Source: a virus
Lineage: Duplodnaviria; Caudoviricetes
Direction: 5' to 3' (one strand)
Length of the DNA stretch: 64,000 nucleotides
Virus record (IMG/VR): IMGVR_UViG_3300032237_000868
Coordinates: 25,157 to 89,156 of that record
Part shown: one piece after another, positions 2,957-59,626 of the stretch
How the letters are laid out: each line of letters opens with the position of its first letter
Numbering within the stretch: the first letter of the stretch is position 1
The notes under the pieces: model-generated
The model's input: the letters and a program-made list of their open reading frames with translations, nothing else
What the model was told of the DNA's origin: nothing
The model's database searches: none
Position numbers and translations under genes: made by a program

Positions 2957-3820
2957 TTATTTTTTGGTATATGGTGCAATATAATCTCTAATAATATTAT
3001 ATTGTGTGCCGCCTTTATCAAATTTAACAGTATAAATAAAATCAGTTGTTGCTGTTGCGTTTGATCTATTTAAATTCATAACAGAAGATTTTTTTAAGAT
3101 AATACCTTTTGTTCCAACTGGAACTATTATAGTTTCATTGTCAAGTGCATATATATTACCTGATGCAATTACTTTACTACCAATATCCATGTCTTTTGAT
3201 AATGATATATCAATTTCAAAAATGTTATCTGGATTAAATATACAAACTTGATCTCCATCCAATAATCTTCGTATTGATTTTCCTTTAAACCACACAGCGT
3301 CGTATTTTGATTTTAAATAATTTGTCATTGCAATTGTGGCTCTATATCTCTCTGCACTAATAGCGGCAAGACTTGTATTAGGATTTCCAAATAATTTTTC
3401 TGGAGATTTAGTATCATAATCATATCCATTTTTAATCCACCATTGCATCATGGTTTTATGAGAACCAAAATTAATAGTTTCTAATCTTGGTATATCCGCA
3501 TAATAAATTTTTAATCCGCGTAATGTTCCACCGTTGAATTGTTTTGCAATGTTTTTAACAGTGGTAAAATAAACACCATATCCCAAATGATGAACAGGAG
3601 CAGGCATTCCTGCATAATAATTACTTAATTGATAACCATGTAAAACGTTTCCAGTTCTAGAATCTCCATAAAATATTTTAAATCCATCTTGATTAATTAA
3701 TTTTTGATTTTCAAATGATGTGCCATGATAAATAGGTCCAAAATACTTATTATCAATTGCAGTTTGCAATGATATCTTTCTAACCTTTTCTTCAAATAGC
3801 AATGATGTTAATTTTATCAT
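2957..3820 (-). CDS. Putative ADP-ribosyltransferase-fold protein (H-Y-type), possibly capsid-packaged
   Basis: IYHGT...LGYGVYFTT motif; N-terminus MIKLTSLLFE. Confidence 0.55.
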   Translation of the reverse strand: MIKLTSLLFEEKVRKISLQTAIDNKYFGPIYHGTSFENQKLINQDGFKIFYGDSRTGNVLHGYQLSNYYAGMPAPVHHLGYGVYFTTVKNIAKQFNGGTLRGLKIYYADIPRLETINFGSHKTMMQWWIKNGYDYDTKSPEKLFGNPNTSLAAISAERYRATIAMTNYLKSKYDAVWFKGKSIRRLLDGDQVCIFNPDNIFEIDISLSKDMDIGSKVIASGNIYALDNETIIVPVGTKGIILKKSSVMNLNRSNATATTDFIYTVKFDKGGTQYNIIRDYIAPYTKK

Positions 3821-3828
3821 GTTATATT

Positions 3829-4593
3829 TTATATTTCAAATGTTTCATTAAAAACGGATGGAGCATTATTATATGAAAGTTTCGATTCATCCAATATATT
3901 ATCTGTATATTGCCAATTCCAAAACAATTCATTGGGTGTATTGAATCCATAAAAATTTAATACTTGTTTTTGTGTTTTAACAACATTAACTCCATTCCAA
4001 TTTTGACCCACGGCAATAAAACCTGCGTCAATATCTTTAATAATATTACTTTCTCCTAATGTCGTGTGTCTATTTTCAAGCCAATTTAATCTTTCAATTA
4101 ATTTTTGATAATAACTATTGGCTTGTCCCCATCTAATACTTGCAAAAAATACAACGGCATCGCATTCAAAAAGTTCTTTACTAATTTTCCACAATTCATC
4201 ATTTTTATTATTATAACTACACCAACAACGATGATTTCCAGTTGGATTTTTTTCTTTGTCCTTTAATATAGATTCTTTAGTACCACAATGATTTCCTCCA
4301 AATTGTTTGTTGCTACTAACATTACCTTCACATGGTAAAATATTTAATTTTGGAATATCAATATGAACAATTTTATCACTGCCAAGACTTTCTTTTATTT
4401 TTAATGCCAATTTTGTGCTTTTTGGAACATCTTCTTTATGCTCTATCCATCTGTTACTTGTGGTTAGTAGCAAAGTTTTTTTCTTATTTTTTAAATAATC
4501 CATTGTTTTTAAATATTGACGAGCATAAACATCCATATCAATTTCACTTGATGGAATTTTTGTTTCGTATAGCAAATCGGATAGATTAATCAT
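3829..4593 (-). CDS. Flavodoxin-like NADPH-dependent FMN reductase / iron-sulfur flavoprotein family
   Basis: LLLTTSNR, NILPCEG, CWCS, ECDAVVFFASIRWGQANSYYQKLIERL. Confidence 0.8.
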   Translation of the reverse strand: MINLSDLLYETKIPSSEIDMDVYARQYLKTMDYLKNKKKTLLLTTSNRWIEHKEDVPKSTKLALKIKESLGSDKIVHIDIPKLNILPCEGNVSSNKQFGGNHCGTKESILKDKEKNPTGNHRCWCSYNNKNDELWKISKELFECDAVVFFASIRWGQANSYYQKLIERLNWLENRHTTLGESNIIKDIDAGFIAVGQNWNGVNVVKTQKQVLNFYGFNTPNELFWNWQYTDNILDESKLSYNNAPSVFNETFEI

Positions 4594-47034: not shown

Positions 47035-47143
47035 ACAAGATACAACTTATTTACAGTTTTGCTTCTGACCTGCATTTTTTTCATGGTCCGCAGACAAGAC
47101 ATTTCATTCCAATATGATTTTTATTTGTTGCTGTGTGTATCTT
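47035..47143 (-). ncRNA. ACAGCAA-family element
   Basis: AAGATACAC-ACAGCAA ... TTGTATCTTGT terminal helix. Confidence 0.6.
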
Positions 47144-48044
47144 AAAATCTATTGTAAAATTCTAAAAATTTATTTATTTCATTTTCTATAAATTTTTTAC
47201 CTGATTTAGTATTTATTGATTTCCAAGGTATTCGATATACTTTCCATGATTGTGACTTTAAATATTCATCTTTTAATTGATCGGATTTTTTTCTATCTTC
47301 AAGAAGATGTTGTTTGCCATCAATTTCCAATGCAATTCTCTTGGATTCTATCGCAAAATCAATAAAATATTTTCCGCAAGGTTCTTCGAACTTATATGAT
47401 ATATTATTGTTTGTCAATACTTTCATGAAAAATAATTCAGCATAAGATGGTTGATTTCTACTTTTCCAACCGGAATGGGTTCCTTCTATAATTCTTTTTA
47501 ATTGTGCTTGTCTGAGTTTTTCTTTATATTCTATACATGCATGTTGACATAATTTTGAACAATAAATAATTTTATTGGATTTTGGTTTAAATTGTTTTTG
47601 ACAAATTTTACAATTTTTGACAATTACTATTTGTTTTTTCTTTTTACGAATTGTGTTTAATCCTCGTTCTGATTGGTAATACAATTTTAATCCGCGTTTT
47701 ATTTTTTCTCTTTGTTCTGAACTAAGAGACGCAGCAAAAAATTTATTAGCGCATTTATGAGAACATGTTTTTTTCTCTCTCGGATGATTTTTTTCAGTCT
47801 CAAACAGCGACTGACATATCGGACATTCTTTTTTAATTTTTTGATATTTACATATATGATTTTTTAATCCAAAATGTGAAATATCGAGTTTAAATTCATA
47901 AATTTTTAATTTAACTTGATTTCTTGATTTTCCATTGTCACAGAAATTAAATTTACGACATATTTCTCCGGTTCCATTGCTTTCTTTTACAACTTGTTTG
48001 AATTTCTCTATATTTGACATTATTTCCGATTCAATCTTATTCAT
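47142..48044 (-). CDS. DUF559/Vsr-like homing endonuclease with CxxC repeats
   Basis: YFIDFAIESKRIALEIDGKQH...D..KD. Confidence 0.88.
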   Translation of the reverse strand: MNKIESEIMSNIEKFKQVVKESNGTGEICRKFNFCDNGKSRNQVKLKIYEFKLDISHFGLKNHICKYQKIKKECPICQSLFETEKNHPREKKTCSHKCANKFFAASLSSEQREKIKRGLKLYYQSERGLNTIRKKKKQIVIVKNCKICQKQFKPKSNKIIYCSKLCQHACIEYKEKLRQAQLKRIIEGTHSGWKSRNQPSYAELFFMKVLTNNNISYKFEEPCGKYFIDFAIESKRIALEIDGKQHLLEDRKKSDQLKDEYLKSQSWKVYRIPWKSINTKSGKKFIENEINKFLEFYNRF

Positions 48045-55780: not shown

Positions 55781-55864
55781 TGGTAGGCGCGGTAGGATTT
55801 GAACCTGCAATTTCAGTTCCAATTACTACCTAGCGGTTTCGAAGACCGTGGAGACTACGCACCC
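55781..55864 (-). tRNA. D-armless tRNA-Arg(TCG)-like RNA
   Basis: Acceptor, only 8 nt before CGGT-CTTCGAA-ACCG, 24-nt post-anticodon region, normal T arm, CCA. Confidence 0.65.
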
Positions 55865-55872
55865 ATTGTAAA

Positions 55873-56428: not shown

Positions 56429-56507
56429 TGGCGAATCGGGTGGGAGTCGAACCCACATTAGTCCAGTTATGCACCAATCGCTTAGAAGGCGCGGCCAATA
56501 CCGATTC
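56429..56507 (-). tRNA. D-armless tRNA-Arg(TCT)-like RNA
   Basis: GAATCGG/CCGATTC-GCCA, CGC-CTTCTAA-GCG directly after a short linker, long post-anticodon region. Confidence 0.65.
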
Positions 56508-56519
56508 ATTTTTAAAATT

Positions 56520-56647
56520 ACGAGATGCATTTTTTACTTTTATACTCTACCATTGAGCTATCGCGGCATAACGAGCCGCGAGTGAGATTCGAACTCACAA
56601 CCTTTGATTTACATATCAATTAGTATATTTGTTGCTGTATACATCTC
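56520..56647 (-). ncRNA. Circularly permuted tRNA-like RNA 1 (ACAGCAA family)
   Basis: Order: outer helix-ACAGCAA-anticodon-like arm-T arm-TCGCGGC-loop-GCCGCGA-D arm-outer helix. Confidence 0.85.
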
Positions 56648-59036: not shown

Positions 59037-59122
59037 TGGTGCGCCGTGAGTGAGTCGAACACCCCGAGCCGTTAAGCAAGTGATTTACAGTCACTCCCGC
59101 TACCCCTACGGTATAACGACGC
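59037..59122 (-). tRNA. tRNA-Tyr(GTA)
   Basis: AGTGA-CTGTAAA-TCACT, long V arm, CCA. Confidence 0.92.
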
Positions 59123-59138
59123 ATTATTAAAAATTGTG

Positions 59139-59369
59139 TCAGTCAAAACTAAAAATTAGATAATTTGATTTTCCTATTCGCAATAGTATATATTTTTCAA
59201 ATAGTAAATCAGATTTTTCTATGATTCTATTTTCCGTTGTTTTGATATTGTTGATGTATAAGCCGCCGCCTTTTAACAAACGCCGTGCTTCAGATTTACT
59301 AATATCATAACAATCCGAAAATAATGTAATTGTGTCTAATATTTCTAATGTTTCTAATGTCTCTTCCAT
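59139..59369 (-). CDS. Stand-alone S4 domain resembling the TyrRS C-terminus
   Basis: SKSEARRLLKGGGLYINN...DLLFEKYILLRIGKSNY; start moved to MEETLE. Confidence 0.85.
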   Translation of the reverse strand: MEETLETLEILDTITLFSDCYDISKSEARRLLKGGGLYINNIKTTENRIIEKSDLLFEKYILLRIGKSNYLIFSFD

Positions 59370-59375
59370 AAAGCA

Positions 59376-59464
59376 TGGTCGTAGATGGAGGAGTTGAACC
59401 ACTTGCCAGCCGCCCTATTTATTGATGGCAACTATTTTACAGACAGCCATAGGGAACATCTACG
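59376..59464 (-). tRNA. D-armless tRNA-Tyr(GTA)-like RNA
   Basis: CGTAGATG/CATCTACG-ACCA, GCTGT-CTGTAAA-ATAGT nested in CCCTAT/ATAGGG. Confidence 0.6.
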
Positions 59465-59471
59465 TTGAAAT

Positions 59472-59530
59472 TGGCGGGAAAATATTAAAAGCTGTTAAAA
59501 TCTAAATCAAGATTTATGTTTTCTTTTCCC
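59472..59530 (-). ncRNA. Mini ACAGC-family element with acceptor stem and CCA
   Basis: GGGAAAA/TTTTCCC-GCCA enclosing AAAACAT-AAATCT/AGATTT-TAACAGC. Confidence 0.55.
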
Positions 59531-59539
59531 ATTAAAAAT

Positions 59540-59616
59540 TGGCTCAGGAGTGGGATTTGATACCCTATCTTTCGTATTAACCATACGACATGCTACATGT
59601 TATACAACACTCCCAA
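59540..59616 (-). pseudogene. Degenerate tRNA-Asn(GTT)
   Basis: TCGTA-TGGTTAA-TACGA (G33), irregular T arm. Confidence 0.6.
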
Positions 59617-59626
59617 ATTTTGAAAT

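What the first reader, a model, noticed from the sequence alone, without database searches (positions are those of the whole stretch)
59037..59464. Stand-alone TyrRS S4 domain sandwiched between a normal and an abnormal tRNA-Tyr
Seen: order on the minus strand is Tyr(GTA)-like RNA, a 76-aa S4 ORF, then canonical tRNA-Tyr(GTA), with no catalytic synthetase domain. Known: the C-terminal S4 domain of bacterial TyrRS binds the variable arm and anticodon stem of tRNA-Tyr, and tRNA-Tyr is a target of some anti-phage nucleases such as retron-associated PtuAB. Inference: a three-part tRNA-Tyr protection or chaperone module.
Basis: partly seen in the sequence, partly recalled or inferred. Interest (0 to 1): 0.8.

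Follow-up and report, generated by a model that had tools for sequence, protein, structure and literature searches.

The report
Free TyrRS tail between two tRNA-Tyr
A large uncultured phage encodes, inside its tRNA gene cluster, only the tRNA-gripping tail of the tyrosine-charging enzyme as a small conserved protein, flanked by an ordinary tyrosine tRNA and by a member of a widespread knotted, non-cloverleaf tyrosine tRNA class; this hints at tRNA-Tyr handling or protection, but related phages show no fixed three-part module.

Summary
On the minus strand lie an 89-nt Tyr(GUA) RNA (59376-59464), a 76-aa ORF (59139-59369) and an 86-nt cloverleaf tRNA-Tyr (59037-59122).

- **The ORF.** It is a real gene (dN/dS 0.10-0.15). 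It matches only the C-terminal tRNA-binding domain of bacterial TyrRS (PF22421; predicted fold TM 0.8 to TyrRS tails). No catalytic domain is found in the 89-kb record. It belongs to a family of free-standing copies in many uncultured phages.
- **The "abnormal" RNA.** It is not a decaying tRNA. It belongs to a conserved class with no D arm and an 8/4 acceptor/T geometry. Its 5' connector pairs with the variable-arm loop. I found 40 other distinct members, and this helix covaries strongly. Sister phages carry a normal cloverleaf tRNA-Tyr in the same slot.
- **The three-part module.** This reading is only partly supported. More distant homologues of the ORF sit beside other tRNAs, a tmRNA or no tRNA. 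None of 147 sampled phage tRNA-Tyr genes has such an ORF in the sequence fetched around it.

Binding of tRNA-Tyr at the variable arm, the site that Septu and retron-Eco7 cleave, is plausible but untested. This scan has noted both the free domain and the knotted tRNA-Tyr before, on other DNA.

The parts
59376..59464 (-). 89-nt non-cloverleaf tRNA-Tyr(GUA). It has an 8-bp acceptor stem (CGUAGAUG/CAUCUACG, C1-G72), UU, a 6-nt connector CCCUAU, a 5-bp anticodon stem, a CUGUAAA loop, and a variable stem UGCCA/UGGCA whose loop holds AUAGGG, the complement of the connector (a pseudoknot in place of the D stem). It ends with a 4-bp T stem carrying one U-U, A73 and an encoded CCA.
   Evidence: Sequence; stem table; 40 other distinct genes of the same architecture in IMG/VR; covariation of every helix including the pseudoknot. 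ARAGORN misses it. The best Rfam match is tRNA-Sec at 17.8 bits.
59139..59369 (-). 76-aa free-standing TyrRS C-terminal (S4-like) tRNA-binding domain. The ATG lies 6 nt after the CCA of the upstream tRNA, and there is no Shine-Dalgarno sequence, as for most genes of this phage.
   Evidence: PF22421 35.4 bits; phrog_9270 TyrRS positions 351-418; PDB sequence matches only to TyrRS C-termini; AlphaFold2 pLDDT 84; Foldseek TMq 0.79-0.80, rmsd 1.2-1.3 A to TyrRS tails, against 0.63 or less for ribosomal S4, Hsp15, YlmH and RluF; dN/dS 0.10-0.15; start contexts.
59037..59122 (-). 86-nt cloverleaf class II tRNA-Tyr(GUA) of the type widespread in FelixO1-like, T-even-like and Klebsiella phages.
   Evidence: ARAGORN; stems all paired; 632 phage records match at 60-90% identity, many of them annotated tRNA-Tyr; orthologues in L013 and L002 carry compensatory anticodon-stem changes.
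59472..59530 (-). 59-nt mini tRNA-like hairpin directly upstream: a 7-bp acceptor-like stem GGGAAAA/UUUUCCC, an inner hairpin, an ACAGC motif and a GCCA end. It is a neighbour and is not shown to belong to the function.
   Evidence: Sequence. It is conserved next to the same slot in L004 and L013, and after the ORF in L002 with a compensatory change (GGGACAA/UUGUCCC).

Best explanation
Three real, co-oriented genes of a jumbo-phage tRNA array sit side by side here.

Shown:
- The 76-aa ORF is an expressed-type gene under purifying selection. It encodes only the C-terminal S4-like domain of bacterial TyrRS. It belongs to a family of free-standing copies spread through uncultured phages.
- The upstream RNA is a member of a conserved pseudoknotted, D-armless, 8/4 tRNA-Tyr class. 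It replaced a cloverleaf tRNA-Tyr at this slot.
- The downstream RNA is a cloverleaf tRNA-Tyr of the common phage type.

Inferred: the protein acts in trans as a small tRNA-binding protein. It grips the angle between the anticodon stem and the long variable arm of tRNA-Tyr, as the same domain does inside TyrRS.

Speculative: the phage uses it to keep tRNA-Tyr usable during infection, by stabilising it or by masking the variable arm. That arm is the site cut by tRNA-Tyr-directed defence nucleases such as Septu and retron-Eco7 PtuAB.

The placement between two tRNA-Tyr genes is specific to this lineage. It is not a conserved operon-like module.
For: - Domain identity comes from four independent routes: Pfam above its cut-off, NCBIfam and PHROG matches confined to the TyrRS tail, PDB profile hits to TyrRS only, and a predicted fold closest to TyrRS C-terminal domains.
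- Real gene: dN/dS is 0.10-0.15 at dS about 0.5. Indels are in frame.
- Stable as a free-standing gene: 14 or more lineages of 70-112 aa in phage-like contexts. Eight of them, including this one, group together (SH-aLRT 93).
- Link to tRNA biology: 5 of about 14 lineages lie inside tRNA arrays and one lies 0.5 kb from a phage tmRNA. In four array lineages the ATG sits exactly 6 nt after the CCA of the preceding tRNA.
- Three of the six Bacillus stearothermophilus TyrRS basic residues that I recall as needed for tRNA binding are kept (R371, R407, K410 = R29, R64, K67). Most other family members keep RKGKK.
- Literature: the TyrRS C-terminal domain recognises the long variable arm (PMC1934993). 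Septu cuts C48/A49 in the variable stem of tRNA-Tyr, and phages respond with their own or amplified tRNA-Tyr genes (PMC13096335, PMC11555353).
Against: - No binding data exist.
- Adjacency to tRNA-Tyr is confined to the closest clade. None of 147 sampled phage tRNA-Tyr genes has such an ORF in the fetched locus.
- About eight lineages have no tRNA within 2.5 kb.
- In this clade the basic patch is weakened (RRGKKK is RIGKSN here). The protein has a net charge of -3 because of an acidic N-terminal 22 residues.
- A domain bound at that site would also compete with the host TyrRS for the same surface.
- The host is unknown, so it is not known whether it carries a tRNA-Tyr-directed nuclease.
Confidence: 0.4

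Rival explanations
1. Charging helper or split synthetase. The free domain works in trans with a TyrRS that lacks, or poorly uses, its own C-terminal domain. That TyrRS could be encoded elsewhere in the roughly 314-kb phage genome or be the host enzyme. The domain would help aminoacylate the phage's unusual tRNA-Tyr species, including the knotted one whose variable arm is rebuilt.
For: The domain is the part of TyrRS that holds tRNA-Tyr (PMC1934993). The phage carries two structurally different tRNA-Tyr genes beside it. The knotted copy has C1-G72, which differs from the bacterial G1-C72 that PMC1934993 names as the species barrier. A relative carries an AlaRS-core fragment two genes from its copy, so aaRS pieces do occur as separate phage genes.
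Against: There is no PF00579 in the 89-kb record, and the rest of the genome could not be searched. None of 42 other knotted tRNA-Tyr genes has the ORF in the fetched locus. Sister phages keep the ORF with a cloverleaf tRNA-Tyr.
Confidence: 0.15
2. General S4-type RNA or ribosome factor. The protein acts like Hsp15, RqcP or YlmH on stalled ribosomes or peptidyl-tRNA, alongside the phage tmRNA. It would have no special tie to tRNA-Tyr.
For: The fold is of the S4 superfamily. The phage encodes a tmRNA in the same array. A homologue lies 0.5 kb upstream of a related phage tmRNA.
Against: Sequence and predicted structure match TyrRS tails far better than Hsp15 or YlmH (E 1.8e-5 and TMq 0.8, against E 0.12 or more and TMq 0.6 or less). 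The generic S4 model PF01479 scores below its cut-off.
Confidence: 0.15
3. RNA-handling protein of the tRNA array that sits beside tRNA-Tyr by chance. It would bind precursor tRNAs or other structured RNAs of the cluster, for processing or stability.
For: The neighbours differ between lineages: Arg/Glu, Phe/Thr-like, Gln/Lys, Ser. With one or two Tyr genes among about 25 tRNAs, one array lineage in five next to Tyr is about what chance gives. The array is full of unusual tRNA-like RNAs.
Against: The domain derives specifically from TyrRS rather than from a generic RNA-binding module. In the window it has a tRNA-Tyr on both sides.
Confidence: 0.15
4. Host-takeover competitor. The free domain occupies host tRNA-Tyr, or otherwise blocks the host TyrRS, and so biases translation toward phage tRNAs.
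For: A free copy of a binding domain is a classic dominant-negative design. The phage brings its own divergent tRNA-Tyr genes.
Against: Phages need host translation. There is no evidence that phage tRNA-Tyr would escape binding. The basic patch is weakened.
Confidence: 0.1
5. Functionless remnant of a former phage tyrS gene.
For: It is only the last fifth of a synthetase.
Against: dN/dS is 0.10-0.15. It is conserved as a complete small ORF down to 50% identity with synonymous sites saturated. No relative has a full-length gene at this place.
Confidence: 0.02

Closest known systems
C-terminal S4-like domain of bacterial tyrosyl-tRNA synthetase (Pfam PF22421; e.g. PDB 1JH3, 1H3E, 2JAN, 6HB7)
   Same: Same sequence family and predicted fold. 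The conserved SK..AR, GG.Y.NN and LLR.GK..Y motifs are kept. In TyrRS this domain binds the long variable arm and anticodon stem of tRNA-Tyr.
   Different: Here it is a separate 76-aa gene with no Rossmann catalytic core and no alpha-helical anticodon-binding domain. It has an acidic N-terminal stretch, and half of the basic tRNA-binding residues are replaced.
Free-standing tRNA-binding domains derived from synthetases (Trbp111/CsaA, related to the MetRS C-terminus, from my own knowledge; the LysRS-related KTSC domain proteins noted in jumbo phages, PMC7824862)
   Same: Same design: the RNA-binding appendage of an aminoacyl-tRNA synthetase is encoded alone and presumed to act in trans on tRNA or translation.
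   Different: The fold and the parent enzyme differ. I found no paper describing a free TyrRS C-terminal domain in phages.
Stand-alone S4 proteins Hsp15, RqcP (YabO) and YlmH
   Same: Small S4-superfamily RNA binders that contact tRNA on the large ribosomal subunit.
   Different: Weak structural match (TMq 0.6 or less). The generic S4 Pfam model scores below its cut-off.
Phage tRNA-Tyr as counter-defence against Septu and retron-Eco7 PtuAB (T5, SP15, T6; PMC11555353, PMC13096335)
   Same: The phage encodes its own tRNA-Tyr, in two copies with different variable arms. The cloverleaf copy is 76% identical to T-even-type tRNA-Tyr.
   Different: Those systems work through tRNA dose or tRNA sequence. 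No protein partner is known there. No defence system or host is known here.
(8/4) tRNAs of bacteria and phages (Mukai et al. 2017, PMC5389517) and D-armless mitochondrial tRNAs
   Same: The upstream RNA has the 8-bp acceptor and 4-bp T stem geometry, and it lacks a D hairpin.
   Different: The published 8/4 tRNAs are Ser, His, Cys or Sec species described under the title 'novel cloverleaf structures'. The paper never uses the word 'pseudoknot' and mentions tRNA-Tyr only in its reference list. In this class the D stem is replaced by a pseudoknot between the 5' connector and the variable-arm loop, and the anticodon is Tyr.

Membership tests
TyrRS C-terminal domain (PF22421 SYY_C-terminal) | Profile match above the curated cut-off | tested here: met
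   35.4 bits against a cut-off of 27, E 1e-8, profile positions 31-82 of 83. Family profile against PDB: TyrRS only, down to E 2.8e-20.
TyrRS C-terminal domain (PF22421 SYY_C-terminal) | S4-like alpha-L fold superposable on solved TyrRS tails | tested here: met
   AlphaFold2 model, pLDDT 84. Foldseek TMq 0.79-0.80 and rmsd 1.2-1.3 A over 66-68 residues to 2JAN and 6HB7. This is a prediction, not a solved structure, and the input alignment held TyrRS fragments.
TyrRS C-terminal domain (PF22421 SYY_C-terminal) | Basic residues used for tRNA-Tyr binding (B. stearothermophilus R368, R371, R407, R408, K410, K411; the list is from my memory of the Bedouelle mutagenesis work) | tested here: inconclusive
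   From the alignment, R371, R407 and K410 are kept (R29, R64, K67), while R368, R408 and K411 are S, I and S. Other family members keep RKGKK or RKGKR.
TyrRS C-terminal domain (PF22421 SYY_C-terminal) | Binds the variable arm and anticodon stem of tRNA-Tyr | not testable with these tools
   No RNA-protein assay or docking tool is available.
Tyrosyl-tRNA synthetase (TIGR00234 / PF00579) | Class I catalytic Rossmann domain with HIGH and KMSKS motifs | tested here: not met
   The ORF is 76 aa. TIGR00234 scores 26.4 bits against a cut-off of 113.8 and covers positions 351-403 only. PF00579 is absent from the 89-kb record. It is not a synthetase.
Hsp15 / RqcP / YlmH stand-alone S4 proteins | Match to the generic S4 model and a structure closest to these proteins | tested here: not met
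   PF01479 scores 21.2 bits against a cut-off of 22.8. Hsp15 and YlmH give TMq 0.46-0.60 with E 0.12 or more.
Pseudoknotted D-armless 8/4 tRNA-Tyr class (upstream RNA) | 8-bp acceptor stem, 10 nt between the 7-bp acceptor register and the anticodon stem, a CUGUAAA loop, a variable stem whose loop is complementary to the connector, a 4-bp T stem and A73 | tested here: met
   The window RNA aligns over its full length with 40 distinct IMG/VR genes. 94.2% of pair cells are paired, against 68.1% in shuffles. The pseudoknot is 92.7-98.8% paired, and 5 of its 6 pairs show changes on both sides. The 8th acceptor pair is always paired, in 5 pair types. The pseudoknot was not used to select the sequences.
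Pseudoknotted D-armless 8/4 tRNA-Tyr class (upstream RNA) | Expressed, processed, charged with tyrosine and used in decoding | not testable with these tools
No biochemical data exist.
Cloverleaf class II tRNA-Tyr (downstream RNA) | Cloverleaf with a long variable arm, a GUA anticodon, A73 and G1-C72 | tested here: met
   ARAGORN call; all stems paired; homologous to annotated tRNA-Tyr genes of hundreds of phages. The Rfam global model gives only a mis-registered 31-bit match.
   Linkage is seen only in the closest clade. It is absent from about 13 other lineages and from 147 sampled phage tRNA-Tyr genes.

The most novel reading that the evidence does not exclude
The free TyrRS tail is a dedicated trans-acting guard or adaptor for phage tRNA-Tyr. 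By sitting on the angle between the variable arm and the anticodon stem, it masks the exact site cut by Septu and retron-type PtuAB nucleases, or it lets the host enzyme accept the knotted tRNA-Tyr. That would be a protein-based anti-defence that works by shielding the substrate. This locus, with a knotted and a cloverleaf tRNA-Tyr on either side, would be its natural test bed.
Probability: 0.2. Interest if true: 0.85.

Novelty: new variant of a known kind. Interest (0 to 1): 0.6.

Why it matters
tRNA-Tyr is a proven battleground between phages and bacterial immunity. The known phage answers are more tRNA or different tRNA. A conserved phage protein made only of the TyrRS part that holds the variable arm, the surface the nucleases cut, would add a third answer: masking or escorting the tRNA.

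Separately, the upstream gene is a clear member of a conserved tRNA class that is not a cloverleaf and that standard tRNA finders miss. Sister phages carry a cloverleaf tRNA-Tyr in the same slot. Together with the adjacent TyrRS-derived protein, these few hundred bases form a compact system for asking how a knotted tRNA is recognised, charged and protected.

Tried and rejected
- **Upstream RNA as a decayed copy of the sister phages' tRNA-Tyr.** This was my first reading. Twelve substitutions fall in the 24 acceptor and anticodon stem sites, yet all 12 pairs are kept (P about 3e-5 under random change). I then found the conserved family. The slot was swapped for a different kind of tRNA gene; it did not erode.
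- **The ORF as a dedicated partner of the knotted tRNA.** A family HMM finds no such ORF, even at E of 10 or less, in 119 loci that hold 42 knotted tRNA-Tyr genes. Positive controls all score E 1e-22 or better.
- **The ORF as a common neighbour of cloverleaf phage tRNA-Tyr.** None of 105 such genes has one.
- **Thermodynamic folding of the upstream RNA.** It is uninformative (z -1.29; alternative folds).
- **The Rfam tRNA-Sec match.** At 17.8 bits it only reflects the 8/4 geometry.
- **Exact-pattern scan for near copies of the upstream RNA in IMG/VR.** None found.
- **The search for related loci.** The close alignment found nothing in IMG/VR. Two broader alignments were too divergent to run. 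One short homologue found nothing.
- **tblastn of three family members against 50,697 cultured or deposited phage records.** Only a few unannotated faecal contigs matched, so the family is nearly absent from cultured phages.
- **Searching the 313,799-bp contig that holds the identical locus for a TyrRS core.** Not possible.
- **Bacterial genome scan.** It returned only hits in cellular genomes at 39-50% identity, which I took to be cellular TyrRS without inspecting the ORFs.

Full report
**Setting.** The window is bases 25157-89156 of an 89-kb IMG/VR virus record, estimated to be 31% complete. The same locus, base for base, lies on a 313,799-bp metagenome contig (L006). So this is a jumbo phage. 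GC content is 32% and most genes have no Shine-Dalgarno sequence. On the minus strand between about 45.7 and 60.1 kb, ARAGORN finds 24 tRNAs and a tmRNA.

**The observation.** It holds as described.
- The downstream gene (59037-59122) is a cloverleaf class II tRNA-Tyr(GUA) with every stem paired, A73 and an encoded CCA. It is 76-86% identical to tRNA-Tyr genes of more than 600 deposited phages, among them FelixO1-like, T-even-like and Klebsiella myoviruses.
- The ORF (59139-59369, 76 aa from its ATG) matches Pfam PF22421 above the cut-off. It matches only the last 50-70 positions of the tyrS models of NCBIfam and PHROGs. No TyrRS catalytic domain is found in the 89-kb record.
- The upstream RNA (59376-59464) has a Tyr anticodon loop, an acceptor stem and an ACCA end, but no D arm. 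ARAGORN misses it, and Rfam offers only a weak tRNA-Sec match.

**The protein.** Searches find close free-standing relatives of 72-82 aa at 91, 87 and 70% identity. An exhaustive HMMER search gives 271 hits. The best are short proteins of 71-112 aa, and full-length TyrRSs come lower.
- Every short homologue I could inspect is a complete small gene in a phage-like setting. Neighbours include sigma-factor, intein-LAGLIDADG, DnaG zinc-ribbon, methylase, PhoH, YopX and Tad3-family genes.
- Against its 90% and 87% relatives, dN/dS is 0.10 and 0.13 at dS 0.5-0.6. The only length differences are in frame.
- The longer relatives are ordinary TyrRSs at 62% identity or less. The closest one has a cellular gene neighbourhood.
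- An AlphaFold2 model (pLDDT 84) superposes on the C-terminal domains of M. tuberculosis and E. coli TyrRS with TM 0.79-0.80 and rmsd 1.2-1.3 A. It fits these much better than ribosomal S4, Hsp15, YlmH or RluF.
- In a tree of this short domain, eight free-standing phage proteins, including this one, group together (SH-aLRT 93). Twelve of 14 fall in one weakly supported cluster.

The gene is a stable, old, free-standing domain family.

**The upstream RNA.** Sister phages carry a good cloverleaf tRNA-Tyr at the same position (Rfam 59.4 and 57.6 bits in L013 and L004). The flanks remain alignable right up to the gene borders.
- The window RNA differs from those genes at 12 of 24 acceptor and anticodon stem positions, yet every pair is kept. 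That rules out erosion.
- A note from earlier work of this scan pointed to a knotted tRNA-Tyr class, so I tested that directly. A pattern asking only for a Tyr anticodon loop, a long spacer and a T loop returned 119 IMG/VR loci. In these, 42 genes have exactly the window's layout.
- Forty distinct sequences align with the window RNA over its full length.
- On that alignment, 94.2% of pair cells form pairs, against 68.1% in shuffles and 40-57% when partners are slid.
- The helix between the 6-nt connector after the acceptor stem and the loop of the variable arm is 92.7-98.8% paired. Five of its six pairs carry changes on both sides, for example CUCUAC/GUAGAG, CCACAC/GUGUGG, CCAUUC/GAAUGG and, here, CCCUAU/AUAGGG.
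- The eighth acceptor pair is always paired, in five pair types. The selection did not use the connector helix, so this is a fair test.

The RNA is thus a regular member of a conserved non-cloverleaf tRNA-Tyr class with 8/4 geometry and a pseudoknot in place of the D stem. Published 8/4 tRNAs are Ser, His, Cys or Sec species described as novel cloverleaf structures, not this class (PMC5389517). I found no paper describing this class. The window copy, like two others, has C1-G72 instead of the usual G1-C72. PMC1934993 names this pair as the barrier between bacterial and archaeal/eukaryotic TyrRS. Its meaning here is open.

**Is there a module?** The arrangement tRNA-Tyr - ORF - tRNA-Tyr occurs in the window phage and in L013/L014. 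L004/L005 have only the upstream tRNA-Tyr.
- The 70% homologue lies between tRNA-Arg and tRNA-Glu, with a tRNA-Tyr 2.9 kb away. The 52% homologue follows tRNA-Phe, with two tRNA-Tyr genes 2 kb away.
- Others lie between Gln and Lys tRNAs, 0.36 kb before two Ser tRNAs, or 0.5 kb before a phage tmRNA. About eight lineages have no tRNA within 2.5 kb.
- From the tRNA side, a family HMM that scores all known members at E 1e-22 or better finds nothing in 119 loci with 42 knotted tRNA-Tyr genes, and nothing below E 0.05 in 119 loci with 105 cloverleaf tRNA-Tyr genes.

So the gene is enriched near tRNA and tmRNA genes, in roughly 6 of 14 lineages. A specific, conserved tie to tRNA-Tyr, or to the knotted tRNA, is not shown. 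Earlier notes of this scan report similar mini-ORFs abutting tRNA-Tyr in other genomes. I could not check them. If they hold, the link would be recurrent but rare.

[quoted passage not shown] Septu and retron-Eco7 PtuAB cleave tRNA-Tyr in the variable stem, and phages counter this with their own or amplified tRNA-Tyr genes (PMC13096335, PMC11555353).

What I infer: the free domain binds tRNA-Tyr at that surface in trans, and the phage uses it to keep tRNA-Tyr serviceable. Three of the six basic residues I recall as essential in the B. stearothermophilus enzyme are kept in this clade, and more are kept in other members. The protein also carries an acidic N-terminal stretch.

In four array lineages the ATG lies exactly 6 nt after the CCA of the preceding tRNA. 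This suggests that the message is released from the tRNA precursor with almost no leader. That too is inference.

The rivals cannot be excluded: a charging helper or split synthetase, a general S4-type ribosome factor, an array RNA-handling protein, or a host competitor.

**Verdict.**
- The "abnormal" tRNA is reclassified as a member of a conserved knotted tRNA-Tyr class.
- The three-part module is not supported by comparative data.
- The free TyrRS tail is a new variant of a known design, a synthetase appendage encoded alone. Its function is untested.

Noticed in passing
window 56432-56508 (-), compared with L013:6083-6159: A second slot swap. The sister phage has a normal tRNA-Arg(UCU) (Rfam 59.7 bits). 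The window has a 77-nt Arg(UCU)-like RNA without a D arm (Rfam only tRNA-Sec, 30.1 bits). The flanks are nearly identical, and the acceptor stem differs by compensatory changes.
   Followed up: partly
window about 55797-55866 (-): A further tRNA-like gene with an Arg(UCG)-type anticodon loop (CUUCGAA), an acceptor stem, a T arm and ACCA, but only about 8 nt where the D arm should be. ARAGORN does not call it.
   Followed up: no
window 56517-56619 (-); L013:5964-6077: Rfam YrlA (Y RNA-like) match at 30.1 bits, E 0.0044, below the gathering score. It covers a conserved element with a T arm, a loop-closed acceptor-like helix and a D-arm-like segment. About 95% identical between the two phages.
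   Followed up: no
window 59472-59530 (-): A 59-nt mini tRNA-like hairpin with a 7-bp acceptor-like stem and a GCCA end. It is conserved in L004 and L013, and with a compensatory change in L002, where it follows the ORF instead of preceding the tRNA.
   Followed up: partly
window 47142-48044 (-): A 300-aa ORF inside the tRNA array with a DUF559/restriction-endonuclease-like domain (PF04480, E 1.9e-10). It is a possible homing endonuclease that could drive the cassette-like exchange of tRNA genes, as SegB does in T-even phages.
   Followed up: no
window 59340-59366 (-): A 9-nt tandem duplication (ACATTAGAA twice) at the 5' end of the ORF adds three residues (ETL) relative to all relatives.
   Followed up: partly
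L020:1222-1956 and L020:3001-3270, 3805-4181: In a related freshwater phage contig, a homologue of the ORF lies two genes after a 244-aa protein that hits the AlaRS catalytic core (PF01411), and 0.5 kb before a phage tmRNA whose tag resembles the window's. Phages may carry other synthetase pieces as separate genes.
   Followed up: no
L022:402-890: Another homologue of the ORF lies in a block of small genes that includes a Tad3-family (anti-Thoeris) gene and YopX genes. This is an accessory, anti-defence-like neighbourhood.
   Followed up: no
window 59541-59618 (-): An unclassified tRNA-like stretch between tRNA-Asn and the mini hairpin, with a T-arm-like GGGUAUCAAAUCCC and a GCCA end. Neither ARAGORN nor Rfam calls it.
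   Followed up: no
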